Assembly (NCBI GenBank): GCA_045105515.1
Contig: JBGCDR010000146.1
Coordinates: forward strand, 1 to 39,656
Length of the DNA: 39,656 nucleotides
Reading direction: 5' to 3'
From: Oligoflexales bacterium
Lineage (GTDB): Bacteria > Bdellovibrionota_B > Oligoflexia > Oligoflexales > Bog-1112
In this document: positions 14,793 to 31,479 of the stretch, piece after piece
Layout: each line of letters opens with the position of its first letter
Position numbering within the stretch: the first letter of the stretch is position 1
Program-made: the position numbers and the translations under genes
The notes under the pieces: generated by a model
Seen by the model: the letters and a program-made list of their open reading frames with translations, nothing else
The model's database searches: none
What the model was told of the DNA's origin: nothing

Positions 14793-14799
14793 TCTGAAA

Positions 14800-17373: not shown

Positions 17374-17402
17374 AAACCACCATTTTGATCAAGGAAACTA
17401 TT

Positions 17403-18248
17403 TTAACTTGCTTTTTTACTGTTAACTTTTTGATGGATTACAGATCCACCGACTTTTTTCACTTCGAACTGATCACTTAATCCAATCATACTTTCAGTAC
17501 CACCTAACACTAGGTAACCATCTCCAATAAGATGCTCACAAAATCTTGAAACTATTGATCTTTTATTTTTACTACTTTGATAAATAAGAACATTTCTACA
17601 TAAAATTAGGTCAAAACTTCCAACATGTCCCCAAGGTTCAATAAGATTCATTTGTTTAAAAACTATCGATTTTTTAAGATAGGGTTTAACACGCCAATTT
17701 GGAAATTTTCCCTCTGAGTCTTGCTCAAAGTGCGTTAGTAACATTGGTGCACTCAAACCTCTTTGCACCTGAAGTTGAGTATAAACGCCTTCTGAAGCAT
17801 GCTTCAAAACTCGATCTGAATAATCAGTTGCCATCATATAGTATTTAAAATTATAACCTTTTTTTTCTAAATCATACAAAATCATCGCCAAGGTATAGGG
17901 TTCTTGTCCAGTACTACACGCTGCACTCCAAATATTAAGATAACTTTTTCCTGCTTTCAAATATTCCTCAAGCACGGATTTTATGGCGTTGAAGACGCCG
18001 ATATCGCGAAAAAATTTGGTTTCATTATTAGTTGCTGTATCAAGAAGCATATTTTCGAGAGTCCGATCGCCTTGAAGTTCAGCTTGTTTATATTGGCGAT
18101 AAAACTCGTCTACCGATTCAATTTTTAATTGTTTACAGATATCTTCTAATCTAGAAGAAAGCTGATAATAGTTTTCCTTAATGTAAACAATTCCAATCTT
18201 ATTTTTTATCAATTCAGAAAAATATTCTAAATGTTTTTCATTAGTCAT
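17403..18248 (-). CDS. cheR: Chemotaxis methyltransferase CheR
   Basis: TNNETKFFRD, IWSAACSTGQEPY, FDLILCRNVLIY, GGTES. Confidence 0.96.
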   Translation of the reverse strand: MTNEKHLEYFSELIKNKIGIVYIKENYYQLSSRLEDICKQLKIESVDEFYRQYKQAELQGDRTLENMLLDTATNNETKFFRDIGVFNAIKSVLEEYLKAGKSYLNIWSAACSTGQEPYTLAMILYDLEKKGYNFKYYMMATDYSDRVLKHASEGVYTQLQVQRGLSAPMLLTHFEQDSEGKFPNWRVKPYLKKSIVFKQMNLIEPWGHVGSFDLILCRNVLIYQSSKNKRSIVSRFCEHLIGDGYLVLGGTESMIGLSDQFEVKKVGGSVIHQKVNSKKAS

Positions 18249-18250
18249 AA

Positions 18251-18622
18251 CTATTTATCCAAACTAATATAATTGTTCAACTTCTCTACTAAAATATCAT
18301 CCGTAAAAGGTTTCATAATATAGTCATTAGCTCCAAGATTTAAGGCCATTTGGATGTCTTCCATTTTATTTTTTGATGTGATTTTAATTATTGGAACTTC
18401 TTGGTTGACACCCCTAATCGCTTTAATGGTTTCTGGACCGTCCATAATAGGCATTTCCCAGTCCAGCAGGACAATATCAAAATGTTTTTTTTGAATATCA
18501 ATAAACTCAAGAGCATCTTTACCTGAAAATGCCGAAGTGAAGTTTATTTGATTATACTCATCTAATGATCCTTTGATAAAATTATGGACTGATTTTGAGT
18601 CATCAACAATTAGAATTTCCAT
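18251..18622 (-). CDS. cheY: CheY-like response regulator
   Basis: IVDDS, LLDWEMP, GANDYIMKPF; inside the che operon. Confidence 0.88.
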   Translation of the reverse strand: MEILIVDDSKSVHNFIKGSLDEYNQINFTSAFSGKDALEFIDIQKKHFDIVLLDWEMPIMDGPETIKAIRGVNQEVPIIKITSKNKMEDIQMALNLGANDYIMKPFTDDILVEKLNNYISLDK

Positions 18623-18634
18623 ATTTAGTCCTTA

Positions 18635-19513
18635 CTAATTTTTTTTCTTTTGATTCAATAATTCATCAATACATTCATCTATGACTTCTTGCTTCGGGGC
18701 CATTTTTGAAATTTCTGATCCTGATGCTACTAAGTTTTCCCTTAGTTCCCAGCTAAGCACCAATCCTTTTTTTATTTGAACACTTGCTGTTGCTGCTAGC
18801 CTTGATATATCTTCATTGCCGTTTTCACTCTTTTCAATAATTCTATTTATATAATCGATTATGGCACCTAGAATTTTGATAGATTGGGTCGCTTCAATAA
18901 ATTCTGCACTTGAGTACACCTCAAATAATAATGATTTTATCTCCTCATATTCTTTATTAAGATTTTGGCATATTGATACACTTCCTGATCCAACCCCATC
19001 TAATAATGCTTCAATTTGATTGAATTTTTCTTGGTTGAAGAAATTTTCATACAATGACACGAATTTGGAAATGTCATTTACTTCAGGTTCGGCAGATGAG
19101 TTTGGGGAGCTTCCCTTAATCTCCATAACTTGGTTCTTATCATCATTAAAAAATCGATCGAATATATCGATTAACTTTTCCCAGCTTACATATTTTTTGG
19201 AAATTATAATCTCAGACAGTGTCTTATTCTTCTCTTCAACTACTTTTAAAATTTCATTTTCAAATTTTTCATTCCATATATTTAGAGATTTGCAAGCACC
19301 AATATAATTTGTTGAGTTTTCTGATAGAAATTTGAAAACTTCTAGTTGCTGATCAATATCCAGCAATTTATTATCATAAACAACTCTTGAGAGATGCGGT
19401 ATTGATTCTACTTTTTCTACCATACACTCTAAAAGATTATCTTTGGAAAGGAGATTATCCTTAAGCAACAGTTTACCTATATACTTCACAACTCCTCCTG
19501 GATTAACATCCAA
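18635..19513 (-). CDS. Hypothetical che-operon protein: N-terminal MshEN-like repeats plus Hpt-like helix bundle lacking His
   Basis: YIGKLLLKDNLLSKDNLLEC and TLSEIIISKKYVSWEKL resemble MshEN xLGxxLxxxGxIxxxxL. LFEVYSSAEFI sits where an Hpt has HxLKGxA. Tightly packed in the operon. Confidence 0.55.
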   Translation of the reverse strand: MDVNPGGVVKYIGKLLLKDNLLSKDNLLECMVEKVESIPHLSRVVYDNKLLDIDQQLEVFKFLSENSTNYIGACKSLNIWNEKFENEILKVVEEKNKTLSEIIISKKYVSWEKLIDIFDRFFNDDKNQVMEIKGSSPNSSAEPEVNDISKFVSLYENFFNQEKFNQIEALLDGVGSGSVSICQNLNKEYEEIKSLLFEVYSSAEFIEATQSIKILGAIIDYINRIIEKSENGNEDISRLAATASVQIKKGLVLSWELRENLVASGSEISKMAPKQEVIDECIDELLNQKKKN

Positions 19514-19514
19514 C

Positions 19515-22160
19515 TTAGGCTACATTTTTTCCGGAACTCACCCTTAGATGACTAAGCATTTTATCAACATCGAGAATATTTATAATTTTTTCGTTATAAA
19601 TAATACTTCCCTTGATATTTTCATCATCTGTTTCATTGCCTTGACAAGGTTCATCCGATCTAATTATATCCATAAACTCATTGACTTCGAGACCAAAAAA
19701 ACCTTCTGCCATTTTTAATACGATGAGTTTATAATTCTCATCTTTCTTAGCTCCAGTCCTAGGAAGCAAGGGCATCACTTTATGTCTGTAGTTTACTGCT
19801 TTTATCTTACCTTTATAGAATACTTTGCTTTCATCTATTTCTTCTAATCTATTGACCTTATCCAAAGGTATTCCATAAAAACCAGGGATACCAATATCTA
19901 TTAAAAGGTACTCATTTATTTTAGATTTTCCTGTCAACGATGTCTGATTTGCTCTATCAATATATTGTTGCCCTTGATCAAGATTTTGCATAAGATTATA
20001 GAGATTAGCAAGTCGCAAGACATCTAATGTTAAGGCTATTTTACCATCACCCATAATAGTGGCTCCAGAATAAATCGTAGATTTGGTCAAGAACTTTATC
20101 AAGGGTTTAATTACAATATCAGTAGAATTAATAATTTCATCGACAACCAAACCAAATCGGCAGTTTCCTGCCACCAAAACAACCAAATTTACAACTTCTA
20201 AGTGTTCAAAGTATTCTTTAGTAGATTGTTTACTACCTTCCAATACTTCATTCAAAAAGAGCAAGGGTAATATACGACCTCTTTGTTTGTATACTGGAGA
20301 GCCTCCTAACCAATCGATTTTTCCTTTATCCTCAGAAATATCAATTCTTGAAAGTTCAACAAGATTTGCTTGCGGTATAACAAACATATCTTCTTTAGCT
20401 TGAACTATAAGAGCGGGAAGTATCGTCAAGGTCAAAGGAAGTTTAAGAGTGTATTTTGTACCAGTGTTGAAAAATGATTCTATATCAATAGAACCACCAA
20501 ATTTTTCTAGTGACTCTTTAACAATATCGAGTCTGCAATCAGGACCACAATTCTTATAAAGAATTTTAGAAACACTAGATGCGAAAAGAAAATACAAAGT
20601 GGTCTTTTCATCTAAATGGCCTGCTTCTTGGGTAGTTACTAAATCTTCGCTAATTGCTATTTCCTTAATTTTATCTAGATTTTGTCCGCATCCATCATCA
20701 GCAACCGTGACAATAATCTGACCACCCTCTCGCCGCGCATTAACTGATATGATAGCTTTTTCTGGCTTATTGTTTTTTATTCGGCCACTTTGCGTTTCTA
20801 TACCAGTTAAAACAGCTATTTTAGCTAACTGACAAATTGGCTCTTCTATGGACTCTAAGATAGTTTTGTCAACCTCGGTGTGTTGACCACTAATATCCAG
20901 ACGTACCGCTTTGTCACTTTTTCTTGAATAATCCCTCACACTACGCTTCAATTTAGAAAAAACTAAATTGATCGGCTGAAGCCTGGTTTTCAGTATTTCA
21001 TTTTGTAGTTTATTGGTTAAAACATTAAGGTTTTGACTCAGAAATGAGTAAACATCGCCATACTCACTGTTTTGACTATTTAACTGAAGTAATTGGTTAC
21101 GAATTAAAATTAACTCACCAATTAAATTCATTAGGTTATTTAAGATACTTACCGGAACTCTTACCGTATCACTAACTTGATCATGCCCTGTCTCAACTCC
21201 CATTTCCGGTTTACTGATGCTTGTTGTTTTTTGATTTTCATCAGAAGGATCTAATTTTTTGCTTTCTATCGCTTTACTGGGAGGATCTCCAAAAGAGCCA
21301 AATTTAATACCTTCAATCTCATCAAGTGATACTTTTTTCTTCTTAATTCCAGATTTTGATTGAGAATTATGTATCTTGGTTTCGCTCTTTTTTAGAGGTG
21401 CGCCAAAAGAACCAAATTTGACACCTTCAATCTCATCAAGTGATACTTTTTTCTTCTTAATTCCAGATTTTGATTTGGGCTTCTCTTCAATTTTGGTGTT
21501 TGATTTGCTTTCTATAATTCCACTAGACGTTTTTTTATCAGAGTATTCACTTGCAGGCTTTGGATTAATTTTCTGGATATCCTCAATTTTATCAACCTTA
21601 ACTTCAGTTGATTCTTCGGAGGTTTTTTCTTCAGATGCTTGTTGCTTTAAAGTAACACTTGATCTATTGTGATCCCTTATATATTTTACTTCGTAAAATG
21701 GATTTAAACTTAGCCCCTCTGGCGAATCAATAAAGTTCAAAGGTTCAAATTTTTCATATATTTCGGCAAATACTGAACAAGTAACTCTTATTGTTTCATT
21801 ATCAGCCTTTAAATATTCAGGTGTCAACTTGCTATGATCGTATAAAGACTCTAGCTTTTTCCTTATATATTCTATAGCAATTAAAATACGATCAAGCAGG
21901 TTTTTAGATAAATTAACTTTCCCTTTTCTTACACTATCTAGGCAGGTTTCTAGACCATGAGCAACGTTGCCAATATGATATATTCCATAAAGTTGAGAAC
22001 TTCCTTTAATCGTATGCATTGACCGATATATAGACTTATAAACTCCAGCTTGATCCTGGACATTATCTTTTTCTATTTCCAGAAATTCATCACAGACATT
22101 ATCAAGTAACTCTAAGGATTCCTCGATATATTCATTAATATATTTTTCTAGATTCTTCAT
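19515..22160 (-). CDS. cheA: CheA-like pseudokinase (intact Hpt, degenerate HATPase, two CheW domains)
   Basis: Hpt MHTIKGSS and P3 LNNLMNLIGELILIRNQL are intact. N box reads ICQLAKIAVLTGIE, F box FASSVSK, G2 GPDCRLDIVK. Confidence 0.9.
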   Translation of the reverse strand: MKNLEKYINEYIEESLELLDNVCDEFLEIEKDNVQDQAGVYKSIYRSMHTIKGSSQLYGIYHIGNVAHGLETCLDSVRKGKVNLSKNLLDRILIAIEYIRKKLESLYDHSKLTPEYLKADNETIRVTCSVFAEIYEKFEPLNFIDSPEGLSLNPFYEVKYIRDHNRSSVTLKQQASEEKTSEESTEVKVDKIEDIQKINPKPASEYSDKKTSSGIIESKSNTKIEEKPKSKSGIKKKKVSLDEIEGVKFGSFGAPLKKSETKIHNSQSKSGIKKKKVSLDEIEGIKFGSFGDPPSKAIESKKLDPSDENQKTTSISKPEMGVETGHDQVSDTVRVPVSILNNLMNLIGELILIRNQLLQLNSQNSEYGDVYSFLSQNLNVLTNKLQNEILKTRLQPINLVFSKLKRSVRDYSRKSDKAVRLDISGQHTEVDKTILESIEEPICQLAKIAVLTGIETQSGRIKNNKPEKAIISVNARREGGQIIVTVADDGCGQNLDKIKEIAISEDLVTTQEAGHLDEKTTLYFLFASSVSKILYKNCGPDCRLDIVKESLEKFGGSIDIESFFNTGTKYTLKLPLTLTILPALIVQAKEDMFVIPQANLVELSRIDISEDKGKIDWLGGSPVYKQRGRILPLLFLNEVLEGSKQSTKEYFEHLEVVNLVVLVAGNCRFGLVVDEIINSTDIVIKPLIKFLTKSTIYSGATIMGDGKIALTLDVLRLANLYNLMQNLDQGQQYIDRANQTSLTGKSKINEYLLIDIGIPGFYGIPLDKVNRLEEIDESKVFYKGKIKAVNYRHKVMPLLPRTGAKKDENYKLIVLKMAEGFFGLEVNEFMDIIRSDEPCQGNETDDENIKGSIIYNEKIINILDVDKMLSHLRVSSGKNVA
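21289..21475 (-). repeat. Direct repeat, 2 x 73 bp (period 114 bp) in the CheA-like linker
   Basis: 21289-21361 and 21403-21475 differ at 3 positions; both encode SKSGIKKKKVSLDEIEG[VI]KFGSFG. Confidence 0.92.
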
Positions 22161-22173
22161 CAGGCTCTACACT

Positions 22174-23718
22174 CTATGAAATCCATATTTTTAATTTTTG
22201 ATCTTCATATTTTTCTTCAATCAGTATTTGCTTCACATAGCCGGAACGTTGTACTTTTCTCTTCAATTCACTAAATTCTATGCCTTTTTCTTCAATAATA
22301 CCCAAGTATTTTTCAGGTATAAGTTCTTCAATCATATCTACTACTCGGCAGGGCATTTGGAGATCTACCTTCTCCCTATTATTTTCGATAAGCTTAATAT
22401 TAAGGTATTTTGAAAAATCTTTAGAAGTATAATTCTTGACATCAAATTGAATATACTGATCTTTTTTCACCAGGACTTTTACTTTATCAGTGTAACAAGA
22501 TCTACTTTTAAAATTCTTGTATATTTGATAAAAGTTAATACTTACATTTAATTTTTCAAGCAGCATAAATAAGCCATTTACTGCTTTTAAAAATATAAAA
22601 AACCAAGGTGGTCCTGCAGCTCGAAACCACCATCGATCTTCCCCTAGGATGGAATTTAGTCTTTCTTTTAAATTCCATTCAGAAATCTTGTAGGGTCTAT
22701 CAGCTGAAAATGGCTCTAACAATAAGCTAATCACAGCAGGTAATAGATGGGCAATATACTTTAGTTTGCTACCATCAAAACCAAGGCTAATTAAATAATC
22801 AAAAGGCGAGAGTGTTTCTTCCTCTACTACGTTTTTAAGGAAAGACCACATTACAGCTGCATGATTGTCGTCAAGCACCAGGGTGGCACCAAAATCATAC
22901 AAGATGATCGCATCAAATTTCCCAGCTGTATTCAACTTAAAACTGATGTTTCCAAAGTTAAAATCAGTCTGAAAACACCTTAAGCCAAAGAGCATTTCAA
23001 AAAAAACTGTTATCAAATTTGATGCAGCTTTTATTTTTTCAGATTTATCCTTCAAAACAAAGGAATCAACTGATATTCCTTCGACCCAATCTTGCAAAAG
23101 AATAGTCTTATTACAATTTGCCGTATATATTTTAGGAACAATGGCTCTAGTATAGTGATTATTAAAATGATCAAAAAATATTTTTTGTTTCTTTGCTTCC
23201 CTCACATAGTCTATTTCGCTTTTCAAAAGTTCTTCAAATAAGTTTCTATAATTTTCTGCCTCAAAGTTTTTCTTATGAAAAAATGGAATAAATTTATAAA
23301 ATTTAAAAAGTTTGTTTATTTGCTGGTCTATGACTTTAGCAATCCCGGGATACTGAATTTTGACAGCATATTCAACACCATTTTTTAATTCCAGCTTATG
23401 CACCTGTCCAACAGAAGCTGAATGAGCTTTTCGATCAAGATTTTTTATTACTCCAATTAACTGGGGTATCTGAGTATGAATAAGATCAAGTACTTCTTCA
23501 TAAGGTATCTCGTAAATAGTTGTGCCATTATTTGAAGATAATGAATCTTCTTCTAGCTTATCGCCTATAAACTGACTAATTTTAGTGCTAATCCCGGGAA
23601 AAGAACCAAGCCATTCCTTAAGAAATTTTATGCTTTTCTCTTTATTGGTTAAACGATAATTAAGAAATTTCACCGTATTTGTGATGGAATTCGAAACTAA
23701 TACTTGGGGTTTTATCAT
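22174..23718 (-). CDS. ABC1/UbiB/Coq8-family atypical protein kinase-like
   Basis: KISQ (KxGQ-like), SASVGQVH, AVKIQYPGI, EIDYVREA, QTDFNFGN catalytic loop, YDFG; 4-bp ATGA overlap with cheB. Confidence 0.9.
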   Translation of the reverse strand: MIKPQVLVSNSITNTVKFLNYRLTNKEKSIKFLKEWLGSFPGISTKISQFIGDKLEEDSLSSNNGTTIYEIPYEEVLDLIHTQIPQLIGVIKNLDRKAHSASVGQVHKLELKNGVEYAVKIQYPGIAKVIDQQINKLFKFYKFIPFFHKKNFEAENYRNLFEELLKSEIDYVREAKKQKIFFDHFNNHYTRAIVPKIYTANCNKTILLQDWVEGISVDSFVLKDKSEKIKAASNLITVFFEMLFGLRCFQTDFNFGNISFKLNTAGKFDAIILYDFGATLVLDDNHAAVMWSFLKNVVEEETLSPFDYLISLGFDGSKLKYIAHLLPAVISLLLEPFSADRPYKISEWNLKERLNSILGEDRWWFRAAGPPWFFIFLKAVNGLFMLLEKLNVSINFYQIYKNFKSRSCYTDKVKVLVKKDQYIQFDVKNYTSKDFSKYLNIKLIENNREKVDLQMPCRVVDMIEELIPEKYLGIIEEKGIEFSELKRKVQRSGYVKQILIEEKYEDQKLKIWIS

Positions 23719-24830
23719 TTTTTCTCCCCATAATGGCTATAGCTAAGAATAAGTTCTCGGCAATTCGATAAAGATTTCACTGCATCATAGGCATTTTCTT
23801 CATATACTGCCCCTGGCATACCCCAAACTGTAGATGAATCCTCATCTTGGATAACAATTCCACCACCACCATTTTTTATTGCAATCGCACCATCGCAACC
23901 ATCACTTCCCATTCCCGTGAGTACAAACCCCATTAAATAGTTTTTGTAAATCTGAGAACTACTTTCAAATGTGTAGTCAGCTGCCGGAATAACAAAGTTT
24001 CTTCGAGCTTCTTGGTTTAGACTGATTTTACACTTTTCACTTTCAGAAACTACGTTCATATGATAGCCACCCGGAGCCAAATAAACCATTCCTGGTTCTA
24101 CTAAATCTCCATCCGATGCTTCGACAACATTATTCTCTGTAACTCGATCTAGCCTATTTGCCAGCTGTGAGGTAAACATTGGTGGCATATGCTGAGCGAT
24201 AAATATGGGAAAAGAAAACTTTGGTAGACCATCAAACAACTCTTCTAAAGCAGCTGGTCCACCTGTAGAACAGGCGATGACTATGGCCTTAGGTTTAAAT
24301 ATATCAAGCTTGACCTTAACCCAGGAAGACTCATCTTTTTTTACCTTATGTTCCGAGGTATCTGCATTATAGCGGTAACGAGGTGCTTTTCCCTTGGCTA
24401 TAGTAGGTGAGGGATCTGCAGGGGCTCGTTTTTTAATAAACTGCATTAATTTTGGCACTAATTCAGAGGCAACCTGATCACGAACTTCTTCCATAGAACC
24501 GCTTGAACCTGCAGGCTTTAAGGCAAAATCATCTGCCCCTAATTCTAAGGCATTCAGGGCATGACTTGCTCCACTCATGCTATTGGAAGTGAATACGACA
24601 ATCTTAGGGCGGATATCAAGTTTTTTAATTTCTTTGATCGTGGATTCACCATCTAATACCGGCATTTCTAAGTCTATGATCATTAAATCGATATCATAAT
24701 GGTCAAGTTTTTTGAGCGCAATCTTTCCATTAGACGCTGAAGAAACTACCTGGAATTCAGGTAGTTCTTCCAGCACCTCAGAGATTTTCCGGCGAAACAC
24801 TACAGAATCGTCAACAATGAGTACTTTCAT
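23715..24830 (-). CDS. cheB: Chemotaxis methylesterase CheB (REC plus esterase)
   Basis: IVDDS, IDLEMP, CSTGGP, QHMP, LTGMGSDG, QDEDSSTVWGMP. Confidence 0.97.
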   Translation of the reverse strand: MKVLIVDDSVVFRRKISEVLEELPEFQVVSSASNGKIALKKLDHYDIDLMIIDLEMPVLDGESTIKEIKKLDIRPKIVVFTSNSMSGASHALNALELGADDFALKPAGSSGSMEEVRDQVASELVPKLMQFIKKRAPADPSPTIAKGKAPRYRYNADTSEHKVKKDESSWVKVKLDIFKPKAIVIACSTGGPAALEELFDGLPKFSFPIFIAQHMPPMFTSQLANRLDRVTENNVVEASDGDLVEPGMVYLAPGGYHMNVVSESEKCKISLNQEARRNFVIPAADYTFESSSQIYKNYLMGFVLTGMGSDGCDGAIAIKNGGGGIVIQDEDSSTVWGMPGAVYEENAYDAVKSLSNCRELILSYSHYGEKK

Positions 24831-24859
24831 AATTTTATCTTTCCCAAGTTCCTACTCGC

Positions 24860-26788
24860 TCAAAGATCCATATTCTTGACTAAGGTATTTAGCTGTTCAG
24901 CAAGGCTACTTAGTGAACGACTCGCTTCTAATATTTGGTTTGCTCCAGAGCTGGTTTCAGATGCAGCCTTAGAAACATTTTTAATGTTGTCCGCAATAGC
25001 TTGAACACCCTTGTTAGATTCATCAACAACTCTGGTTACTTCCAGAGAGGTAGCAGCTTGTTCTTCAATCGAAGCAGCAATTGAACCAGAAATATCGTTA
25101 AGTTTTTTAATACTTTCGCTAATAGCACCTATTGCGGTGACTGTTTGCTCAGTATCACTTTGGATCGCTCCTATTTTTGAAGTAATTTCCTCGGTAGCAG
25201 TTGCTGTTTGCTTGGCTAATTCTTTAACCTCATTGGCTACGACTGCAAATCCTCTTCCTGCATCACCAGCTCTTGCGGCTTCAATAGTAGCATTTAACGC
25301 AAGAAGGTTAGTTTGCTGAGCAATCGAGCTGATAACCTTAATAACCTTACCTATTTGATTGCTACTTTCCCCAAGCTTCATGATCTTAACATTGGTTTCA
25401 TCAGCTTGGGATTTGGTTGCATTCGACATTTTTGATGCCTGAGAAGAATTATTAGAAATTTCTTTAATTGCAGCTTGCATTTCTTCCATGTTTGTAGCTA
25501 CAGCATCAAAACCTTTTGACACTTCCTCTGAAGCGGATGCCGCGTTGGTAGACTGAGCAGAGGTTTCTTCAGAATTTGCTGTCATTTGCGTAGAGGTAGC
25601 ATTCATTTCTTCGGCTGCCGCAGACAATGAACTTGCTGCTTCTTTAATATTAGAAACGAGAGCAATTTTTTCAGTAATCACTTCCCAAGTAACCATTGCT
25701 CCTAAATACTCTTGATTTGCGTCATAGGTGGCATTTACCCTTAGCTGCAGGGTATCTTGCCCAACCTTTATCCTTGCGGTATGAGGTAGATTACGCGGAT
25801 CTGAGAGAATTTTTCTTTGAACATCTGGGTTTTTGTGGAATATATCTATTTTTTCACCAATCAACTTGTCAACTGGCTTTGGTAATTCTCGTTCTATGGT
25901 TTTTAAGGTTTCGTAAGATGCTGGATTCATAAACACTAGATTGTAATCTAAATCTGCCATCAATATATTAATTGGTGCATTTTCAATCATTGACTGAATT
26001 CTAGCTAGCTCGTTTTCTTTTTCTAATTTTTCAGTAATGATTTCCCAGGTCACCATCGGGCCTATGTATTTATTGTCTTTGTCGTAAACTGCCGAAACAA
26101 GTAAATCCAACTTTTCTGGGCCTACACCGATTTCAGCACGATGGGGAAGGTTTCTATCATCTCTTACTATGCTTCTTTGAATTTCTGGCTTGCGATGAAA
26201 GATATCTATTTTTTCTCCAAGTAGCTGATCAACAGGCCTTGGGAGATATTTCTCTAAAGTTTTCAGAGTCTCACGAGAAGCAGGATTCATATAGACAAGG
26301 GTAAAATCCGTATCAGCAAGCAAGATATTTATAGGGGCGTTTTCTAACATGGAGTTATAACGTGCTGCTTGATTATCAACTTTGACTTTCTCAGTAATGA
26401 TTTCCCAAGTTAACATCGGGCCCACGTAATCGCCTACTTTGTTGTAAATAGGAGAAATCAATAAATCTAAGATTTCATCTCCCAGCTCAATTTTAGCTCG
26501 ATGCGGCAAGTTCCGCGGATCTTTTAGCAGATTTCGCTGATGTGAAGGATTTTTATGAAACACATCAATGCTTGATCCAATTACTTTGTCAGCTGGAATA
26601 GGTAAGACCTTTTCAAGTTTACGTAAGGTATTGTAGCTAGATTCATTTAAATACTTAATCTCAAAATTAAGATCACAATACATGATGTTAATAGGTGAAC
26701 TGTCATTAAAAGCACGAAACTCTTCAGATGAAATCTCCGAATCCTCGCTTTGAAGTAACCTTGCTGCATTTGAAGCCATAACAATCAC
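24860..26788 (-). CDS. Soluble methyl-accepting chemoreceptor with three Aer2-type PAS domains
   Basis: Three repeats with IDxFHxxP and TWE[IV]IT; no TM segment; signalling hairpin [37 protein letters not shown]. Confidence 0.93.
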
Positions 26789-26791
26789 CCT

Positions 26792-27289
26792 TTATTTTAG
26801 TTCATTTAAATAATTAACTATTTTCTGTAAATCGATGATACTGAGTAGTGAAGAATTATTAACCTTGTAAACTCCCACCATAAATCTCTTGATAGAGTTA
26901 GGGATCGTTTGAGGAGTCTGCTCAAAGTCACTTGCTTCAACACTAAATACATCACCAATCTCATCAACTAATAAAGACACCAAATTATCCTCGTACTGAC
27001 AGACCACATTCATATATTCTGAATTTTCACTAGTGCCTGTTTGTGAGCTTATCCCAAGCAATTCACGCATTCCAATTGCCGTAGTCACTTGCCCTCTAAG
27101 GTTTATGAGTCCTTTGATACATTCCGGCACCAAAGGGATCTTAGTAAGAGGCATAGGCTTTACAATTTCCTGCACTTGAGTAACTTCAATCCCATAGATC
27201 TGATCCGCAACATAAAAAGTCGAATATTGAGTGCTATGAGTTGATTGAGTATTTTGAGCAGCCCGGCTATTTTGTACTTCTTGAGTCAT
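26792..27289 (-). CDS. cheW: Coupling protein CheW
   Basis: VQEIV, GLINLRGQV, LLVDEIGDV; GAGG RBS favours ATG 27289 (track start 27316). Confidence 0.95.
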   Translation of the reverse strand: MTQEVQNSRAAQNTQSTHSTQYSTFYVADQIYGIEVTQVQEIVKPMPLTKIPLVPECIKGLINLRGQVTTAIGMRELLGISSQTGTSENSEYMNVVCQYEDNLVSLLVDEIGDVFSVEASDFEQTPQTIPNSIKRFMVGVYKVNNSSLLSIIDLQKIVNYLNELK

Positions 27290-27305
27290 CTTGATCCTCT
27301 TTTCA

Positions 27306-29435
27306 TTAAGCAGCACTTTTTTGTTTATCTAAGTGCTTAAGCATTGAATTTAACAATACTGATTCATCAAACTTTTTTAAAAAATCTGAGAACCCAAGTT
27401 CTTTCCCTCTTTGAATTAGGTCGTCAGTATAGCGGCTCGTCATAGCAACTACCGGAATATTGCCCCATTTTTCACTGTTACGAATGTTTTCAAGAAGCTC
27501 AAATCCATCCATTTCCGGCATTTCAATATCGGTTATTACAAAATCTACGTCCTTGTTCGATGCATTAGCCAAATATTGGTGGGCTAATCTACCATTTTTT
27601 TCGGAATGAACATTGAACCCAAAATTTTTCAGAGTCCTTTGAATATGATTTCTATAAGAATTACTGTCCTCAACAAGAAGGATACTAAGATTCTTTGGTA
27701 AGAGCATTAGAACTTCGGCATTGGGATCACTAGAATCTAATCCAATGAATTCGCTTATGATCGAATATACATCGATGCAGACAATGATTTGCTCTTTATA
27801 GATTACATTCCCAACAATTCCTACAGATTGAGTCAAGCCTTCTTCTGTCTCACCTCTAATCTCAATAACATCAAGAATACTATCCACAAGTATGCCAAAA
27901 AACTGATTACAATGTTTAACTACTGCAACTGAATGCTTAGCCGATTTTTTTTCGCTTTTATTTATATCATTGAAATCTACATAATCTAAAACTGAGATAA
28001 GAGGCAATATATCATCACCATAGTTGACCACAAGATTATCCCCACAATATTCTAGGTCATCTTCATCAAATTCCTCCAATCTGTGGACAAATCCCAATGG
28101 AATTGCGTATCTACCAGGAACGTTAAGATCAACTAGTAGATATTCCTCGACTGTTTCATTGAGCTTTAAACTTAGGTCTTCTACCTGATTATTGATAAAT
28201 TTTTGAGATTGTTCTGAAAAGATATCTTCTCCCTCTGCTAAGCCAACTGCATCAAGTACGAGAGCAACCGATCCGTCCCCCATGATTGTGGCTCCTGAAT
28301 AAACCGAGGCATTTTTGAGAAAACTACTTAGTGGCTTCACAACGATATCTGTGGAATCAACAATGGTATCTACCACCAAGCCAAAGGAACAGTTATTTGC
28401 TGTGAGTACAGCTATATTTTTCGTATGAATTGGGTTTTCCTTTGGACACAGTCCAAGGGCATGTTCAAGAGAAATCAGCGATAATATGCTGCCTCTGAGC
28501 CTATAAATTGGCTTTCCACCAAGCCATTCTATCATTTCTCCATGTTCATTATCTTCAACCATTACTAGCTCTTGAATTTTTACCTGTGGAATTGCATATT
28601 TTTCGTTTTTTACTTGTACAATGACTGCTGGAACTATTGCCAAAGTAAGAGGTATCTTCAATAGTATCGCTGACCCATGCCCTTCCTGACTATCTAGCTC
28701 TATGGTGCCATTGATCTGCTCGATGTTAGTTTTAACAACGTCCATTCCAACGCCCCTGCCAGATATACTTGACACCTTTGCAGCTGTTGAAAATCCTGGA
28801 TTAAATATTAAATTAAAAATTTGTTTTCGGGTCATATTTTGTATTTCATCATTGCTAACTAGACCCTTACTCACTGCCTTGTTAGCGATTAATTTTTCAT
28901 CTAGGCCCTTTCCGTCATCAATCACTTGCACAACTACCTGACCACCTTCGTGGAAGGCTTTAATACTAATATTTCCTTTCTCGTTTTTACCTTTTTTCAC
29001 CCTTACATCAGGGTTTTCTATACCATGATCAACCGCGTTTCTTACAATATGAATCAAAGGGTCTTTTATACCTTCAATTAAAGTCTTGTCTAGCTCTGTT
29101 TCCGCACCTTGAATTGATAAATCAATCTCTTTTTTTAGATCACGAGATAAATCTCTAACAATCCTACTTAATTTCGAGAGGATATTACCAATAGGCTGCA
29201 TCCTAGTTTTCATAACATCATTTTGTAATTCATTGGTAACAGCATTAAGATTTTGCCCAAGAGCTACCACTTTATCGTCAGATTTCCTCTGCGAGGAAAC
29301 TTGCGTGAATTGATTTCTAATCAGAACCAACTCGCCGATAAAGTTCATCAAATTGTCAAGCAAGCCAACCTGAACCCTTATGGTATCTGAGGAACCATCA
29401 AAACTACCAGTCTTGCCTAATTTTTTATTATCCAT
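27306..29435 (-). CDS. cheA: CheA lacking the Hpt/P1 domain (P3-P4-CheW-CheW-REC)
   Basis: Starts about 15 aa before DTIRVQVGLLDNLMN; intact HIVRNAVDHGIE, DDGKG, FNPGFST, SGRGVGMDVVK; C-terminal REC (VEDS, TDIEMP); in-frame TAG two codons upstream of the ATG. Confidence 0.92.
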   Translation of the reverse strand: MDNKKLGKTGSFDGSSDTIRVQVGLLDNLMNFIGELVLIRNQFTQVSSQRKSDDKVVALGQNLNAVTNELQNDVMKTRMQPIGNILSKLSRIVRDLSRDLKKEIDLSIQGAETELDKTLIEGIKDPLIHIVRNAVDHGIENPDVRVKKGKNEKGNISIKAFHEGGQVVVQVIDDGKGLDEKLIANKAVSKGLVSNDEIQNMTRKQIFNLIFNPGFSTAAKVSSISGRGVGMDVVKTNIEQINGTIELDSQEGHGSAILLKIPLTLAIVPAVIVQVKNEKYAIPQVKIQELVMVEDNEHGEMIEWLGGKPIYRLRGSILSLISLEHALGLCPKENPIHTKNIAVLTANNCSFGLVVDTIVDSTDIVVKPLSSFLKNASVYSGATIMGDGSVALVLDAVGLAEGEDIFSEQSQKFINNQVEDLSLKLNETVEEYLLVDLNVPGRYAIPLGFVHRLEEFDEDDLEYCGDNLVVNYGDDILPLISVLDYVDFNDINKSEKKSAKHSVAVVKHCNQFFGILVDSILDVIEIRGETEEGLTQSVGIVGNVIYKEQIIVCIDVYSIISEFIGLDSSDPNAEVLMLLPKNLSILLVEDSNSYRNHIQRTLKNFGFNVHSEKNGRLAHQYLANASNKDVDFVITDIEMPEMDGFELLENIRNSEKWGNIPVVAMTSRYTDDLIQRGKELGFSDFLKKFDESVLLNSMLKHLDKQKSAA

Positions 29436-29478
29436 AAGCTACTAGTTCCTACGAACCTTTACAAAGGTTATGGCCGGC

Positions 29479-29628: not shown

Positions 29629-30702
29629 CTATTTCTGATTAACTATTTTATAGGTTATATTTTGAATTTTCTTAAGATTTGCTAAGACATCTTCCTCTAG
29701 TTTTGAACTATGATAGTCAGTTTTGATCATCTTTGATGACCAATGCGCAAGTTTTATGTATGTATTAAAATTCAGTTCTGCTAACCTTCGAATGCTGAAT
29801 TGGGTTTCATAGTTTTTCAATGCTTTCTGTAATTCGAAGATTAGCAGGTCTTTTTTAAAAGGTTTTGGCAAAAATGCAAATGCTCCTAAATTAATGAATT
29901 CTTTTAGGTCTTCCATCTCAGCATACCCTGAATAGAAAATTACTGGCATCATTAGTTCTCTCTTACGTAATTCCCGAATAAAATCTAAACCATTCATCTC
30001 TGGCATTTTAAGATCAGTAATTATAGCCGAGATCGCTGTATCTGAATTATCAATTTCTTCTAGCGCAAGTCTGCCATTCATGGCTTTTAAAACTCTTACT
30101 CCGAGCGCCTTCTCGATTGAAGTAGACAACACCGTTAGGAGGCTAGCTTCATCATCACAGATAAGGATAGTAGTTTCTTTTAAGCTTTGCCTAACATCAA
30201 AATATTGAGAACTAGCTGGTTTGGGATCTTTAGACTTTGGTTTTTTAGCAGTCATACTAAAAACACCGTATTTCTCCATAATTTCAGACTTATTTGCGGC
30301 AATATTTTCTTTTCCAATAAGTTCACTAATCTTTTCTTGGAAGTCAGAAGTATCCAGAGTAAACCCATAATTTTCCAATAAGCCTTCAACAAAAGTCGCC
30401 AGCATGTCGTTAGCATCCAACAACAAATCAATAATTTCTTTGGAAATCTGAATTTCGCCAGCCCCGATTTTACTTAGTAAAGATTCGAAGTCATGAGCAA
30501 AATCGCTAAGCTGCTGAAAACCAGCTGCAGATCCTGAACCTTTAATGGTATGGGCGAGGCGAAAAATTTGATCTATGGTTTTATTATTATTTTCAGGATT
30601 TTGCTCTAATCCCAGAAATAGTTGCTCGCATTCCTCAAGCATTTCTTTGGCTTCTTCCAAAAAATCTTGCTTTAAAACATCAATTTCATAATCAATTTTC
30701 AT
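29629..30702 (-). CDS. CheA-P1-like Hpt fused to a REC domain
   Basis: FLEEAKEML, IFRLAHTIKGSG, AHDFESLL; REC ICDDE, ITDLKMP, YSG, KPF. Confidence 0.92.
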   Translation of the reverse strand: MKIDYEIDVLKQDFLEEAKEMLEECEQLFLGLEQNPENNNKTIDQIFRLAHTIKGSGSAAGFQQLSDFAHDFESLLSKIGAGEIQISKEIIDLLLDANDMLATFVEGLLENYGFTLDTSDFQEKISELIGKENIAANKSEIMEKYGVFSMTAKKPKSKDPKPASSQYFDVRQSLKETTILICDDEASLLTVLSTSIEKALGVRVLKAMNGRLALEEIDNSDTAISAIITDLKMPEMNGLDFIRELRKRELMMPVIFYSGYAEMEDLKEFINLGAFAFLPKPFKKDLLIFELQKALKNYETQFSIRRLAELNFNTYIKLAHWSSKMIKTDYHSSKLEEDVLANLKKIQNITYKIVNQK

Positions 30703-30714
30703 GTCATTCCTAAA

Positions 30715-31479
30715 CTACTGTTTGGTAACACCTATTTGCCCAACAAAACTGTTTAATATCGGTCTTTTTCTTGGCCCAAAGTAGTCAATATAGTCTTGCG
30801 TCCAATGATTCCATCGCCGCGATTCATCCTGGCGAATATCATAATATTTACGGAGAACTATGTCATATGCACCAATGACTTCAGGATCGAAGCTTGCTTT
30901 GCATGTTCCTTGCCAAAGCGGATCAGCAAGCCTTGTAGGCTCAAAAGGGTCGATGAATATTTTTAAACTATTTATTCCTTGTGCACGCTCGTCAATAACT
31001 TTTGACTCAAATAAAAAATCTACGCGGTCACGATATCGCCGATTAGTTTTACACTTCCTTCCAAGGCTAATCGTTATTATTTCTTTTTGTTCAAGACCAT
31101 CATCATAGTCCTGAACAAACATAAATCCCATTAACTCTGAGTCATTAATGATACTTAAAAAACTGTCTAGCTCCTTTGGGCCCGTCAATTTAACCGATTT
31201 TTGAACTATTTTTTTCATAGTATCAATTAGATCTACGTCATGATTGGGACGTAGATAAAATGATTCAAAAGTATTGACATGGATTTTATTTTGTGGCCTT
31301 GACCATCCAATCTTTTTCTTCTGCCTATAATTTTCAAATTTATTCATGAGGTATTTAAGAATATTGCTTGATTTTTTCTTTTCAGATAAAGCAAGATAAA
31401 TTTCACTATATTCTTGGCTATTTAAAACCTCACTTTGATCTCCGCATGGTTTATCCTGTGTCTTCTTACTAATGTGCAC
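30715..31479 (-). CDS. Hypothetical protein, first gene of the Hpt-REC unit
   Basis: 254-aa ORF, AAGGA RBS with GTG start, 12-bp gap to the Hpt-REC gene; no recognised motif. Confidence 0.7.
   Translation of the reverse strand: MHISKKTQDKPCGDQSEVLNSQEYSEIYLALSEKKKSSNILKYLMNKFENYRQKKKIGWSRPQNKIHVNTFESFYLRPNHDVDLIDTMKKIVQKSVKLTGPKELDSFLSIINDSELMGFMFVQDYDDGLEQKEIITISLGRKCKTNRRYRDRVDFLFESKVIDERAQGINSLKIFIDPFEPTRLADPLWQGTCKASFDPEVIGAYDIVLRKYYDIRQDESRRWNHWTQDYIDYFGPRKRPILNSFVGQIGVTKQ

What the first reader, a model, noticed from the sequence alone, without database searches (positions are those of the whole stretch)
22174..23718. ABC1/UbiB atypical kinase translationally coupled to cheB
Seen: ATGA overlap with cheB and a 13-bp gap to the pseudokinase cheA; catalytic Lys, Glu, D-x-x-x-x-N and DFG are retained; KxGQ reads KISQ; there is an extra about 80-aa C-terminal domain. 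Established: UbiB/Coq8 proteins are linked to quinone and lipid metabolism and are not a standard chemosensory component. Inference: it couples quinone/redox or membrane state to the array, or phosphorylates Che proteins. Its position next to the kinase-dead CheA is suggestive.
Basis: partly seen in the sequence, partly recalled or inferred. Interest (0 to 1): 0.75.

Follow-up and report, generated by a model that had tools for sequence, protein, structure and literature searches.

The report
UbiB-like ATPase inside oxygen-sensing chemotaxis operon
A kinase-like ATPase of the UbiB/ABC1 family really does sit inside a chemotaxis operon here, and its relatives in several bacterial phyla also lie beside chemotaxis genes and haem-based oxygen sensors, so it is probably an unrecognised helper of oxygen sensing rather than a quinone-synthesis enzyme.

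Summary
It is not UbiB proper. It belongs to a distinct, large clade of about 500-aa soluble ABC1 proteins that all carry this small C-terminal domain (352 representatives at E<=1e-30). The che linkage is not unique. Of 11 clade loci from species-representative genomes, 5 have che genes next to the ABC1 gene (Planctomycetota, Verrucomicrobiota, Bacteriovoracaceae), against 0 of 69 loci of other ABC1 proteins. Every complete receptor seen beside it (3 of 3, window included) carries an Aer2-type PAS-haem domain. Another locus has two truncated haemoglobins and a haem-oxygenase-like gene. One in-silico paper (Corallococcus, 2018) saw the same pairing and judged it unique. A second partner emerged: a conserved 254-aa protein with no family and no PDB fold match. 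It is the first gene of the window's operon and lies directly upstream of the ABC1 gene in 3 other loci. Best reading: an accessory ATPase of haem-based O2-sensing chemosensory pathways. The exact mechanism is inferred, not shown.

The parts
22174..23718 (-). ABC1/UbiB-type atypical kinase-like ATPase with a C-terminal extra domain (514 aa), the gene of the finding
   Evidence: Pfam ABC1 E 6.8e-38. AF2 model pLDDT 89.8, pTM 0.87. Best PDB fold matches are COQ8A 7udq/4ped/5i35 at E 1e-16 to 1e-15. phmmer against PDB gives COQ8A 8e-23 over residues 96-402.
23572..23583 (-). KxGQ-equivalent motif K46-I-S-Q49
   Evidence: K and Q are invariant in 91/91. The third position is G 43, A 23, S 19 of 91. 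Coordinates.
22816..23424 (-). ABC1 kinase-like core (residues 99-301) with the Ala-rich loop, K120, E168, D252..N257 and D275-F-G
22177..22431 (-). C-terminal extra domain (residues ~430-514), strand-strand-three helices-strand-strand
   Evidence: pLDDT >90. No Pfam hit even at E 10, and no SHOCT-like family among the 25 families most often matched by the 91 members. The Atlas structure search gives TM 0.62/0.58 to a cluster that is 91% PF22746 SHOCT-like_DUF2089-C (YvlB/LiaX N-terminal), plus stand-alone ~93-119-aa proteins at TM 0.64-0.70.
23715..24830 (-). CheB (receiver + methylesterase); its stop overlaps the ABC1 start
   Evidence: Pfam CheB_methylest 5.8e-55, Response_reg 4.2e-22; junction
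24860..26788 (-). Soluble Aer2-like chemoreceptor with three PAS-haem-type repeats of exactly 120 aa
   Evidence: MCPsignal 1.5e-32. phmmer against PDB: Aer2 PAS 3vol 1.6e-15, 4hi4 2.1e-14, 6ceq 5.9e-14. D[VI]FH at residues 75/195/315 and TWE at 127/247/367. No TM segment by hydropathy.
26792..27316 (-). CheW
   Evidence: Pfam CheW 6e-29
27306..29435 (-). CheA lacking P1 (dimerisation, intact HATPase, 2 CheW-like stretches, C-terminal receiver)
   Evidence: intact N/G1/F/G2 boxes
29629..30702 (-). Hpt-receiver protein (a separate P1-like domain)
   Evidence: Pfam Hpt 6.4e-17, Response_reg 5e-24
30715..31479 (-). unk254: conserved protein of no known family, first gene of the operon-like array, recurrent partner of the ABC1 clade
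   Evidence: No Pfam or NCBIfam hit. Homologues lie directly upstream of the ABC1 gene in L001, L002 and L005. There are 30 invariant positions in 15 sequences. AF2 pLDDT 83.5. No PDB fold match, best E 0.07.
19515..22160 (-). CheA-like protein (881 aa): the P1 His is kept, the ATP-binding N/F/G2 boxes are degenerate; starts 13 nt after ABC1
18635..19513 (-). unk292, unknown protein within the array
   Evidence: No Pfam hit. A weak sub-threshold NCBIfam c-di-GMP-motif (MshE-related) hit, 19.6 bits against a cut-off of 38.
18251..18622 (-). CheY-like receiver
17403..18248 (-). CheR
   Evidence: Pfam CheR 9.6e-50
14800..17373 (-). Third CheA (receiver-Hpt-HATPase-CheW), last gene of the array
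   Evidence: intact boxes
13585..14364 (+). Globin-domain protein (259 aa) flanking the array, convergent with it
   Evidence: Pfam Globin 8.1e-10

Best explanation
The gene encodes a soluble member of a distinct, widespread clade of the UbiB/ABC1 atypical-kinase family: about 500 aa, a kinase-like core plus a small C-terminal SHOCT-like domain. The clade is a dedicated accessory component of haem-based O2-sensing signalling modules, above all chemosensory pathways built on cytoplasmic Aer2-type PAS-haem or globin receptors. In this window it is co-transcribed and probably translationally coupled with cheB, in a 12-gene che array whose first gene is its second conserved partner, unk254. By analogy with COQ8/UbiB it most likely acts as an ATPase gated by a small hydrophobic ligand (a quinone or other prenyl-lipid head group), not as a protein kinase. 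It would use ATP turnover to sense or present that ligand, so that the output of the O2-sensing array also reflects respiratory or membrane redox state. The C-terminal domain and/or unk254 would provide the contact with the signalling proteins. Shown: family membership, intact catalytic core, a separate clade, recurrent linkage to che genes, haem sensors and unk254. Inferred: ATPase activity, the nature of the ligand, and the point of contact with the array.
For: (1) Tight packing: the ATGA overlap with cheB and a 13-nt gap to the next gene. Eleven of the twelve genes 31479->14800 on one strand are joined by overlaps or gaps of <=29 nt, with a single 193-nt gap. (2) A distinct clade: 352 representatives at E<=1e-30, and by my count 141 of the 150 listed align through residue >=493, that is, including the C-terminal domain. 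In an 89-row tree the 39 clade rows are split from E. coli UbiB, COQ8A/B and actinobacterial and other ABC1 proteins with SH-aLRT 99. (3) Linkage: che genes lie beside the ABC1 gene in 5 of 11 clade loci. These are L007 CheR-CheD-CheY-CheX-CheB-ABC1, L009 CheA-CheC-CheD-RR-ABC1-RR-CheB, L032 CheY-CheA-CheW-x-MCP-ABC1-CheY-CheB, and L003 and L006 ABC1 convergent with an MCP. The count is 0 of 69 for other ABC1 loci (Fisher p 1.9e-5). The che-linked members fall in at least four subclades. Junctions are tight there too. (4) Haem/O2 theme: all 3 complete receptors beside a clade member carry an Aer2-type PAS-haem domain. These are the window with three, L006 with an Aer-type PAS plus an Aer2-type PAS, and L032 with truncated haemoglobin + GAF + Aer2-type PAS. 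L008 has ABC1-DUF3050 (haem-oxygenase-like)-trHbN-Bac_globin. In L005 a cytochrome c ORF overlaps the 3' end of the ABC1 gene. The window has a globin at the array's edge. (5) Independent literature case: Corallococcus coralloides CheA-CheW-MCP(PAS+Bac_globin)-ABC1-ABM-CheB-CheR (PMC6194562, passages read). (6) ATPase rather than kinase: K46 and Q49 of KxGQ, the Ala-rich loop and all catalytic residues are invariant in 91/91. In COQ8 the KxGQ Gln holds the water proposed as nucleophile, the ATPase is activated by cardiolipin and phenols, and no protein or lipid phosphorylation was seen (10.1101/149823, passages). COQ8 delivers insoluble CoQ intermediates using ATP (PMC13418538, listed abstract start and two passages).
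Against: No biochemical or genetic data exist for any member of this clade. The nearest homologues (63% and 54%) could not be placed in their contigs. Only 11 clade loci were available. They are not phylogenetically independent, several contigs are short, and 3 of 11 (L004, L008, L010) show neither che genes nor unk254. No quinone-biosynthesis or quinone-binding gene is linked, so the ligand is a guess by analogy. The protein has no predicted TM segment, so any access to membrane quinones would have to be peripheral. Aer2 receptors of Pseudomonas and Vibrio species are reported to sense O2 in an E. coli hijack assay without such a partner (PMC10107281, abstract), so the ABC1 protein is not needed for Aer2-type sensing as such. 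Some plant ABC1 proteins are reported to be true kinases (PMC8956952, title and listed start of abstract only).
Confidence: 0.45

Rival explanations
1. It is a true protein kinase that phosphorylates a Che protein (receptor, CheB, or the P1-bearing but ATP-binding-dead 881-aa CheA-like protein) on Ser/Thr/Tyr, adding a second phosphorylation input and perhaps compensating for the dead CheA.
For: The full kinase catalytic set is conserved. In the window it lies immediately next to a CheA whose N, F and G2 boxes are degenerate. In all four che-embedded cases seen here (window, L007, L009, L032) and in Corallococcus, the gene lies within two genes of cheB. At least one plant ABC1 protein is reported as a Mn2+-dependent kinase (PMC8956952, title and listed start of abstract).
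Against: The UbiB-specific KxxQ and Ala-rich loop are invariant. In COQ8 these go with ATPase activity and absence of trans-kinase activity, and mutants that gain autophosphorylation lose function (10.1101/149823). The dead-CheA adjacency is not conserved: the L032 CheA has intact boxes. Three clade loci pair the gene with unk254 and have no che gene in view.
Confidence: 0.15
2. It is an ATP-driven chaperone for a hydrophobic cofactor of the sensors themselves. It would load, exchange or remove haem (or a haem-derived product) on PAS-haem and globin sensor domains, together with oxygenase-like partners.
For: Its recurrent neighbours are haem proteins: Aer2-type PAS-haem receptors, truncated haemoglobins, a cytochrome c, the haem-oxygenase-like DUF3050 in L008 and an ABM-domain protein in Corallococcus (PMC6194562). 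COQ8 is now described as an ATPase that chaperones insoluble lipid intermediates (PMC13418538).
Against: Aer2 PAS domains bind haem when made in E. coli without such a helper (PMC10107281, abstract). No UbiB-family member is known to handle haem (my knowledge; no search was made on this point). unk254 has no recognisable haem-protein fold.
Confidence: 0.15
3. It is an ordinary quinone-biosynthesis UbiB/AarF homologue that merely happens to lie in this che operon, with no functional tie.
For: Pfam and NCBIfam place it in the ABC1/UbiB superfamily. Two clade loci (L008, L010) show no che gene, and L010 lies 1-5 kb from mevalonate-pathway genes.
Against: It scores 93.4 bits against a cut-off of 487.55 for TIGR01982 UbiB, and 67.7 against 667 for NF003404. 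It falls in a separate clade from E. coli UbiB. It has no TM helices. No ubi genes lie in any of 11 clade loci. The che/haem-sensor linkage recurs across phyla.
Confidence: 0.05

Closest known systems
COQ8A/COQ8B (ADCK3/4), eukaryotic UbiB-family ATPases
   Same: They are the best sequence and fold matches: phmmer 8e-23 over residues 96-402 and Foldseek E 1e-16, TM by target 0.72. The motif set is the same. The window's catalytic loop QTDxNxxN even follows the COQ8 pattern (QTDPNWSN), whereas the clade majority has H at position 250 in 74/91.
   Different: About 20% identity. A separate clade. No mitochondrial or CoQ context. An added C-terminal SHOCT-like domain. The third KxGQ position is S. 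The genomic partners are che genes, haem sensors and unk254, not CoQ enzymes.
Bacterial UbiB (E. coli ubiE-ubiJ-ubiB operon)
   Same: ABC1 core. Like ubiJ-ubiB, which overlap by 4 nt, the clade gene is often preceded by a small tightly coupled partner gene (unk254 in L001, L002 and L005).
   Different: Far below the equivalog cut-offs. No C-terminal TM helices, whereas E. coli UbiB has predicted C-terminal TM domains (10.1101/149823). unk254 shows no similarity to UbiJ (hhalign probability 0.1). No ubi neighbours.
Corallococcus coralloides Cc-5 cluster (CheA-CheW-MCP[PAS+Bac_globin]-ABC1-ABM-CheB-CheR), Sharma et al. 2018, PMC6194562
   Same: An ABC1-domain gene inside a che cluster whose soluble receptor has PAS and globin domains, close to cheB. 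The L032 receptor (truncated haemoglobin + GAF + PAS + MCPsignal) has nearly the same make-up.
   Different: That paper found the ABC1 and ABM genes in no other che cluster and read them as late additions tied to ubiquinone and bc1. Here the linkage recurs in several phyla. No ABM-domain protein was found among the window ORFs scanned.
Aer2 / F7-type chemosensory systems (P. aeruginosa Che2, V. cholerae cluster III, V. vulnificus tri-PAS Aer2)
   Same: A soluble receptor with PAS-haem domains, the His in D[VI]FH and the Trp in TWE in each of three repeats. A tri-PAS-haem Aer2 is known (PMC10107281, abstract). The gene set cheY-cheA-cheW-receptor-...-cheB/cheR/cheD in L032 and L007 resembles Che2 (gene order recalled; the paper's description is only partly seen).
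   Different: The described F7 clusters contain no ABC1 gene: the terms ABC1 and UbiB occur 0 times in PMC7184735. The window receptor has no Pfam HAMP hit and does not end in the aromatic pentapeptide described for Aer2 (it ends ...NMDL; motif). The heptad class was not determined.
Mycobacterial ABC1 ATPases Rv3197 (MABP-1) and MSMEG_1954
   Same: Soluble bacterial ABC1 ATPases with solved structures, and the second tier of fold matches (E 3e-13 to 7e-11).
   Different: NCBIfam MABP-1 scores 53.7 bits against a cut-off of 800. Actinobacterial ABC1 proteins form another clade. None of the actinobacterial loci among the 69 other ABC1 loci has a che neighbour.

Membership tests
UbiB/ABC1 atypical kinase superfamily (PF03109) | Significant match to the ABC1 domain model above the gathering score | tested here: met
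   130.6 bits against a cut-off of 22.9, E 6.8e-38; 91 of 91 clade members match
UbiB/ABC1 atypical kinase superfamily (PF03109) | KxGQ motif in the N-terminal extension | tested here: met
   K46 and Q49 are present and invariant in 91/91. The G is replaced by S in the window (G 43, A 23, S 19 of 91). K and Q, the residues given a role in COQ8, are kept.
UbiB/ABC1 atypical kinase superfamily (PF03109) | Ala-rich loop in place of the Gly-rich loop, plus catalytic Lys, Glu, D-x4-N and DFG | tested here: met
   SASVGQVH aligns to COQ8A AASIGQVH. K120, E168, D252, N257 and D275 are invariant.
UbiB/ABC1 atypical kinase superfamily (PF03109) | COQ8A-like fold | tested here: met
   Foldseek E 1.1e-16, TM by target 0.72, on a model of pLDDT 89.8
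UbiB/ABC1 atypical kinase superfamily (PF03109) | ATPase activity stimulated by lipids or phenols | not testable with these tools
   Needs purified protein
UbiB proper (TIGR01982 / NF003404 equivalogs) | Score above the curated equivalog cut-off | tested here: not met
   93.4 against 487.55 bits; 67.7 against 667 bits
UbiB proper (TIGR01982 / NF003404 equivalogs) | Groups with E. coli UbiB in a tree | tested here: not met
   E. coli UbiB lies on the other side of the SH-aLRT 99 split
UbiB proper (TIGR01982 / NF003404 equivalogs) | C-terminal transmembrane helices and a ubi gene context | tested here: not met
   The highest 19-residue Kyte-Doolittle mean is 1.45, a crude test. No ubi genes in the window or in 11 clade loci.
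COQ8 (ADCK3/4) orthologue | Groups with COQ8A/B sequences | tested here: not met
   COQ8A/B rows form their own starred clade among the 50 non-clade rows
MABP-1 macrolide-binding ATPase (NF050082) | Score above the cut-off | tested here: not met
   53.7 against 800 bits
Aer2-type (F7-like) chemosensory system, for the surrounding cluster | Soluble receptor with PAS-haem domain(s) bearing the haem-ligand His and the O2-stabilising Trp | tested here: met
   phmmer to Aer2 PAS structures at 1.6e-15 to 5.9e-14. FH and TWE are present in each of three repeats. No TM segment. Haem binding itself was not tested.
Aer2-type (F7-like) chemosensory system, for the surrounding cluster | 36H heptad class of the signalling domain | not tested
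   No heptad classifier was available
Aer2-type (F7-like) chemosensory system, for the surrounding cluster | C-terminal x-[HFYW]-x2-[HFYW] pentapeptide and HAMP domains | tested here: not met
   The receptor ends ...LVKNMDL and has no Pfam HAMP hit at E<=0.01. The motif definition comes from PMC7184735.
SHOCT-like_DUF2089-C (PF22746), for the C-terminal domain | Sequence match to the Pfam model | tested here: not met
   No hit at E<=10 for the isolated domain. The family is not among the 25 families most often matched by the 91 members.
SHOCT-like_DUF2089-C (PF22746), for the C-terminal domain | Same fold | tested here: inconclusive
   TM 0.62/0.58 between predicted models over 83 residues. 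This is a short domain, so it is a lead only.

The most novel reading that the evidence does not exclude
A whole clade of UbiB-family ATPases (hundreds of representatives in Planctomycetota, Verrucomicrobiota, Bdellovibrionota, Myxococcota and Pseudomonadota), together with a partner protein that has no PDB fold match (unk254), forms a previously unrecognised accessory module of haem-based O2-sensing signalling. It would give cytoplasmic Aer2/globin chemoreceptor arrays a second, ATP-dependent input from a hydrophobic redox-active ligand (quinone pool state), or it would service the sensors' cofactor. This would be the first signalling role, as opposed to a biosynthetic role, for a bacterial UbiB protein, and a new class of auxiliary chemotaxis protein.
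Probability: 0.3. Interest if true: 0.8.

Novelty: new variant of a known kind. Interest (0 to 1): 0.62.

Why it matters
UbiB/ABC1 proteins are among the most widespread kinase-like proteins still lacking a clear function. What is established concerns quinone biosynthesis and lipid handling. A clade that is genomically tied to chemosensory clusters and haem O2 sensors instead of ubi genes would widen the family's known roles to signalling. It offers a tractable, soluble, TM-free model protein with obvious read-outs (aerotaxis, CheA activity). It also bears on an open question, the biological role and extra inputs of Aer2/F7-type cytoplasmic arrays. Finally, it flags unk254 as a conserved partner with no family and no PDB fold match that is worth a structure.

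Tried and rejected
(1) Complex prediction of ABC1 (alignment A2) with unk254 (alignment A3): no answer, score 0.00 in two runs, controls not run. This is neither support nor evidence against binding.

(2) Fold search of unk254 against the PDB: 0 matches at E<=0.001 and a best E of 0.07 (CapZ). Scattered weak hits to lipid-binding folds all had probability <0.25, so I did not use them. The Atlas feature search gave best scores of 0.88 to unnamed clusters, which is below the level that means anything.

(3) hhalign of the unk254 family against E. coli UbiJ, testing a UbiJ-UbiB analogy: probability 0.1. Rejected.

(4) Pfam on the isolated C-terminal domain at E<=10, and on all 91 members at E<=1: no family for the C-terminal domain.

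(5) A second homologous-protein run with the 91-sequence profile returned no new clade members or organism names.

The names and taxa of the representative proteins therefore stayed unknown.

(7) tblastn against plasmids: 91 records, none covering >=80% of the query, all ordinary ABC1 proteins.

(8) Promoter/terminator scan of 14300-32000: 62 promoter-like sites against 66.2 +/- 8.2 expected. The terminator-like sites on the minus strand all fall inside coding regions or upstream of the first gene, none between two genes of the array, so the scan says nothing about the operon.

(9) The idea that the dead CheA is the reason for the ABC1 gene was rejected, because the L032 CheA is intact.

(10) The all-against-all comparison of ORFs in the 11 clade loci and the window found no further recurrent neighbour beyond che/receiver genes, the MCP/truncated-globin cluster and unk254.
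Full report
**1.

The ORF at 22174-23718 on the minus strand encodes 514 aa. It matches Pfam ABC1 (PF03109) at E 6.8e-38 over residues 99-301.

- The cheB stop and the ABC1 start share the tetranucleotide ATGA, with GGGGAG 6-11 nt upstream of the ATG.
- The ABC1 stop TAG is followed by 13 nt and then the ATG of an 881-aa CheA-like gene.
- The part that aligns to COQ8A ends near residue 402-405.
- Residues ~430-514 are modelled with pLDDT >90 as a compact domain of two strands, three helices and two strands.
- The 881-aa neighbour keeps its P1 histidine (HTIKGSS). Its N box reads QLAKIAVLTGIE where the three other CheAs have H[IL]VRNA[VI]DHGIE. Its F box is shortened, and its G2 box reads CGPDCRLDIV. 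From sequence, 'kinase-dead' is a fair description.

**2. The setting in the window**

Twelve genes lie on the minus strand between 31479 and 14800, in this order:

1. unk254
2. Hpt-receiver
3. a CheA lacking P1 but carrying a receiver
4. CheW
5. a 642-aa receptor
6. CheB
7. ABC1
8. the degenerate CheA-like protein
9. unk292
10. CheY
11. CheR
12. a receiver-Hpt-CheA

They are joined by overlaps or gaps of at most 29 nt, with one 193-nt gap after the second gene. Hpt, receiver-HisKA, globin and receiver genes lie on the plus strand at 12405-14792. A consensus promoter/terminator scan added nothing.

The receptor is soluble by a simple hydropathy test. It consists of three 120-residue repeats, each with D[VI]FH and TWE. 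The repeats match the PAS-haem domains of Aer2 (3vol 1.6e-15, 4hi4 2.1e-14, 6ceq 5.9e-14). A tri-PAS-haem Aer2 has been described in Vibrio vulnificus (PMC10107281, abstract read). The ABC1 gene therefore sits in an Aer2-type, presumably O2-sensing, chemosensory cluster.

**3. What the protein is**

It is a UbiB/ABC1-superfamily protein but not UbiB itself.

- It scores 93.4 bits against a cut-off of 487.55 for TIGR01982, 67.7 against 667 for NF003404, and 53.7 against 800 for the mycobacterial MABP-1 model.
- An exhaustive HMMER search of 1.84 billion representatives found 352 proteins at E<=1e-30. Nearly all are about 500 aa. By my count of the table, 141 of the 150 listed align to query residue 493 or beyond, so they include the C-terminal domain.
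- In an alignment of 91 of them, G42, K46, Q49, S102, Q105, A118, K120, E168, E174, D252, N257, D275 and F314 are invariant. The G of KxGQ is G in 43, A in 23 and S in 19 of 91.
- The AlphaFold model built on this alignment has pLDDT 89.8 and pTM 0.87. Its best PDB matches are COQ8A (E 1.1e-16, TM by target 0.72), then MSMEG_1954 and Rv3197.
- No transmembrane segment is predicted.
- The C-terminal domain has no Pfam match. In the ESM Atlas it resembles stand-alone ~93-119-aa proteins, including a cluster that is 91% PF22746 SHOCT-like_DUF2089-C, at TM 0.62/0.58. This is a lead only.

The tree had 89 rows: the window protein, 27 of the representatives, the ABC1 ORFs of 11 clade loci and 26 of the 69 other loci, COQ8A/B and other named proteins, and E. 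coli UbiB. It was built with IQ-TREE in quick mode, LG+G4, with SH-aLRT support only. The 39 clade rows are split from the 50 others with support 99. E. coli UbiB, COQ8 and the actinobacterial proteins all lie on the other side.

**4. Relatives and their neighbourhoods**

Eleven of them (L001-L010 and L032) carry full-length clade members. The other 69 carry other ABC1 proteins. I screened all 80 with phmmer using 13 window proteins, and annotated the 11 clade loci with Pfam.

Che genes lie beside the ABC1 gene in 5 of the 11 clade loci:

| Locus | Taxon label | Gene order |
|---|---|---|
| L007 | Phycisphaeraceae | CheR-CheD-CheY-CheX-CheB-ABC1 |
| L009 | Pirellulaceae | CheA-CheC-CheD-RR-ABC1-RR-CheB |
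| L032 | Verrucomicrobiota | CheY-CheA-CheW-x-MCP-ABC1-CheY-CheB |
| L003 | Bacteriovoracaceae | ABC1 convergent with an MCP |
| L006 | Flavobacteriaceae | ABC1 convergent with an MCP |

- None of the 69 other loci has a che gene. The three receiver-domain hits there are a hybrid histidine kinase, a sigma-54 activator and a Ser/Thr kinase-receiver protein.
- Fisher's exact test gives p 1.9e-5. This ignores relatedness and the unequal contig lengths, so it should be read loosely.
- The che-linked members fall in at least four subclades of the tree.
- The junctions are tight in these loci too. In L032 a GTG start directly follows the MCP stop. In L009 the ATG overlaps the upstream receiver gene. 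In L007 an ATG lies 20-29 nt after the cheB stop.
- No locus has ubi genes.
- L004 is a 2.4-kb contig. L008 and L010 have no che gene in 20 kb.

**5. The common theme is haem-based O2 sensing**

- All three complete receptors next to a clade member contain an Aer2-type PAS domain. These are the window (three), L006 (an Aer-type PAS followed by an Aer2-type PAS; 6ceq 7.1e-14, 8dik 7.6e-11) and L032 (truncated haemoglobin 1.8e-16, GAF, Aer2-type PAS 7.2e-15).
- In L008 the ABC1 gene is followed on the same strand by DUF3050 (a weak Haem_oxygenas_2 match), a group-1 truncated haemoglobin (2.1e-32 to cyanoglobin) and a second Bac_globin protein.
- In L005 a cytochrome c ORF overlaps the 3' end of the ABC1 gene.
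- The only paper that my four literature searches found to link ABC1 with che genes is Sharma et al. 2018 (PMC6194562, passages read). It describes CheA-CheW-MCP(PAS+Bac_globin)-ABC1-ABM-CheB-CheR in Corallococcus coralloides. It states that no other cluster contained the ABC1 and ABM genes, and it interprets them through ubiquinone and the bc1 complex.
- The data here show that the pairing is recurrent and old rather than a one-off.
- The paper on F7/Aer2 arrays (PMC7184735) does not contain the words ABC1 or UbiB.

**6. A second partner, unk254**

The first gene of the window's array (30715-31479) has no Pfam or NCBIfam match.

- Its homologues lie immediately upstream of the ABC1 gene, with gaps of 6-18 nt, in L001 (Alteromonadaceae, among PilZ and three GGDEF genes), L002 (Nannocystaceae) and L005 (Alphaproteobacteria).
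- Fifteen sequences share 30 invariant positions in four blocks: E.YRQ.RK.GWSRPxNK, SLGR...R.RDR.D, DPF/Y and W.HWT..Y[IL][DN]YF.PR.
- The model (pLDDT 83.5) is a helix pair, then a six-stranded antiparallel sheet packed against helices, then a conserved C-terminal tail.
- It has no PDB match better than E 0.07.
- The closest unk254 homologue (69%) and the closest ABC1 homologue (63%) are both listed with a longest contig of 73,071 bases from the same source. They may lie on the same contig, but I could not check this.

The window thus unites the two contexts in which the clade is found, che-embedded and unk254-paired.

**7. How it most likely works**

Shown:
- a catalytically intact UbiB-type core;
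- a separate clade with an added domain;
- recurrent, tightly packed linkage to che genes, haem O2 sensors and unk254.

Established for the family:
- COQ8 and E. coli UbiB are ATPases stimulated by cardiolipin membranes and phenolic quinone precursors. The KxGQ glutamine holds the putative nucleophilic water. No protein or lipid phosphorylation was detected (10.1101/149823, passages).
- COQ8 is described as using ATP to deliver insoluble CoQ intermediates (PMC13418538, listed abstract start and two passages).
- UbiB is also needed for an ATP-dependent decarboxylation (10.64898/2026.03.05.709815, abstract).

Inferred: the clade protein is an ATPase gated by a hydrophobic, probably redox-active small ligand. 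It modulates or services the O2-sensing array, with the C-terminal domain and/or unk254 as the interface. I put about 0.7 on 'dedicated accessory component of haem-based O2-sensing pathways' and 0.45 on the fuller statement including the ATPase mechanism.

Rivals:
- a true protein kinase acting on Che proteins (0.15);
- a cofactor (haem) chaperone for the sensors (0.15);
- a hitch-hiking housekeeping UbiB (0.05).

The adjacency to a dead CheA is specific to the window. The L032 CheA has intact boxes.

**8. Novelty and limits**

The protein family and the Aer2-type system are both known. The new elements are the clade, its C-terminal domain, its recurrent tie to O2-sensing che clusters across phyla, and the unk254 partner. 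Only one case has been noted in print. I rate this a new variant of a known kind.

Limits:
- only 11 clade loci, some on short contigs;
- the nearest homologues' contexts were unseen;
- the tree was built in quick mode without bootstraps;
- TM prediction was by hydropathy only;
- there is no experimental evidence.

The complex prediction gave no answer and is reported only under Tried and rejected.

Noticed in passing
window 30715-31479 (-); L001 5739-6548, L002 3254-4210, L005 9170-9916: unk254 is a conserved ~250-aa protein family with no Pfam or NCBIfam model and no PDB fold match. It has 30 invariant positions, including GWSRPxNK and W.HWT motifs. It is the recurrent upstream neighbour of the ABC1 clade.
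   Followed up: yes
window 14800-17373, 19515-22160, 27306-29435, 29629-30702 (all -): One array holds three CheA-type genes with parts split between them. The first has no P1 but an intact ATP-binding domain plus a receiver. The second has P1 but degenerate N/F/G2 boxes. The third is a receiver-Hpt-CheA. There is also a separate Hpt-receiver protein. This suggests phosphotransfer in trans between them.
   Followed up: partly
window 21288-21359 and 21402-21473 (-): The linker of the 881-aa CheA-like protein contains a duplicated 24-residue motif (SKSGIKKKKVSLDEIEG[VI]KFGSFG) where a P2 domain would be expected.
   Followed up: no
window 24860-26788 (-): The receptor has three PAS-haem-type repeats with an exact 120-residue period, no Pfam HAMP domain, no TM segment and no C-terminal aromatic pentapeptide. 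It is an Aer2 variant unlike the described gammaproteobacterial ones.
   Followed up: partly
window 12405-14792 (+): Hpt, receiver-HisKA, a 259-aa globin-domain protein with an acidic tail, and a single receiver lie next to the che array. This may be a second haem-based phosphorelay.
   Followed up: no
window 18635-19513 (-): unk292 lies inside the che array and has no family. Its only hit is a sub-threshold NCBIfam match to an MshE-related c-di-GMP-binding motif (19.6 bits against a cut-off of 38).
   Followed up: no
window 7479-8729 (-): A 416-aa ORF has a MAC/perforin (MACPF) domain (E 2.4e-07), upstream of a glycine-betaine-type ABC transporter operon.
   Followed up: no
L008 9914-13970 (+): In a Planctomycetota MAG the clade ABC1 gene is followed by DUF3050 (haem-oxygenase-like), a group-1 truncated haemoglobin and a second Bac_globin protein, with no che genes in 20 kb.
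   Followed up: partly
L001 2029-11639: In an Alteromonadaceae MAG the unk254-ABC1 pair is surrounded by a YcgR-like PilZ protein and three GGDEF proteins, which links it to c-di-GMP and motility control. The ABC1 ORF there runs into a masked N stretch, so its apparent 690-aa length is an artefact.
   Followed up: partly
L006 (whole locus) and L003: The L006 contig is labelled Flavobacteriaceae. Its ABC1 protein groups with Bacteriovoracaceae sequences, and it shares the aminotransferase-...-ABC1-MCP arrangement with L003. The contig may be mis-binned.
   Followed up: no
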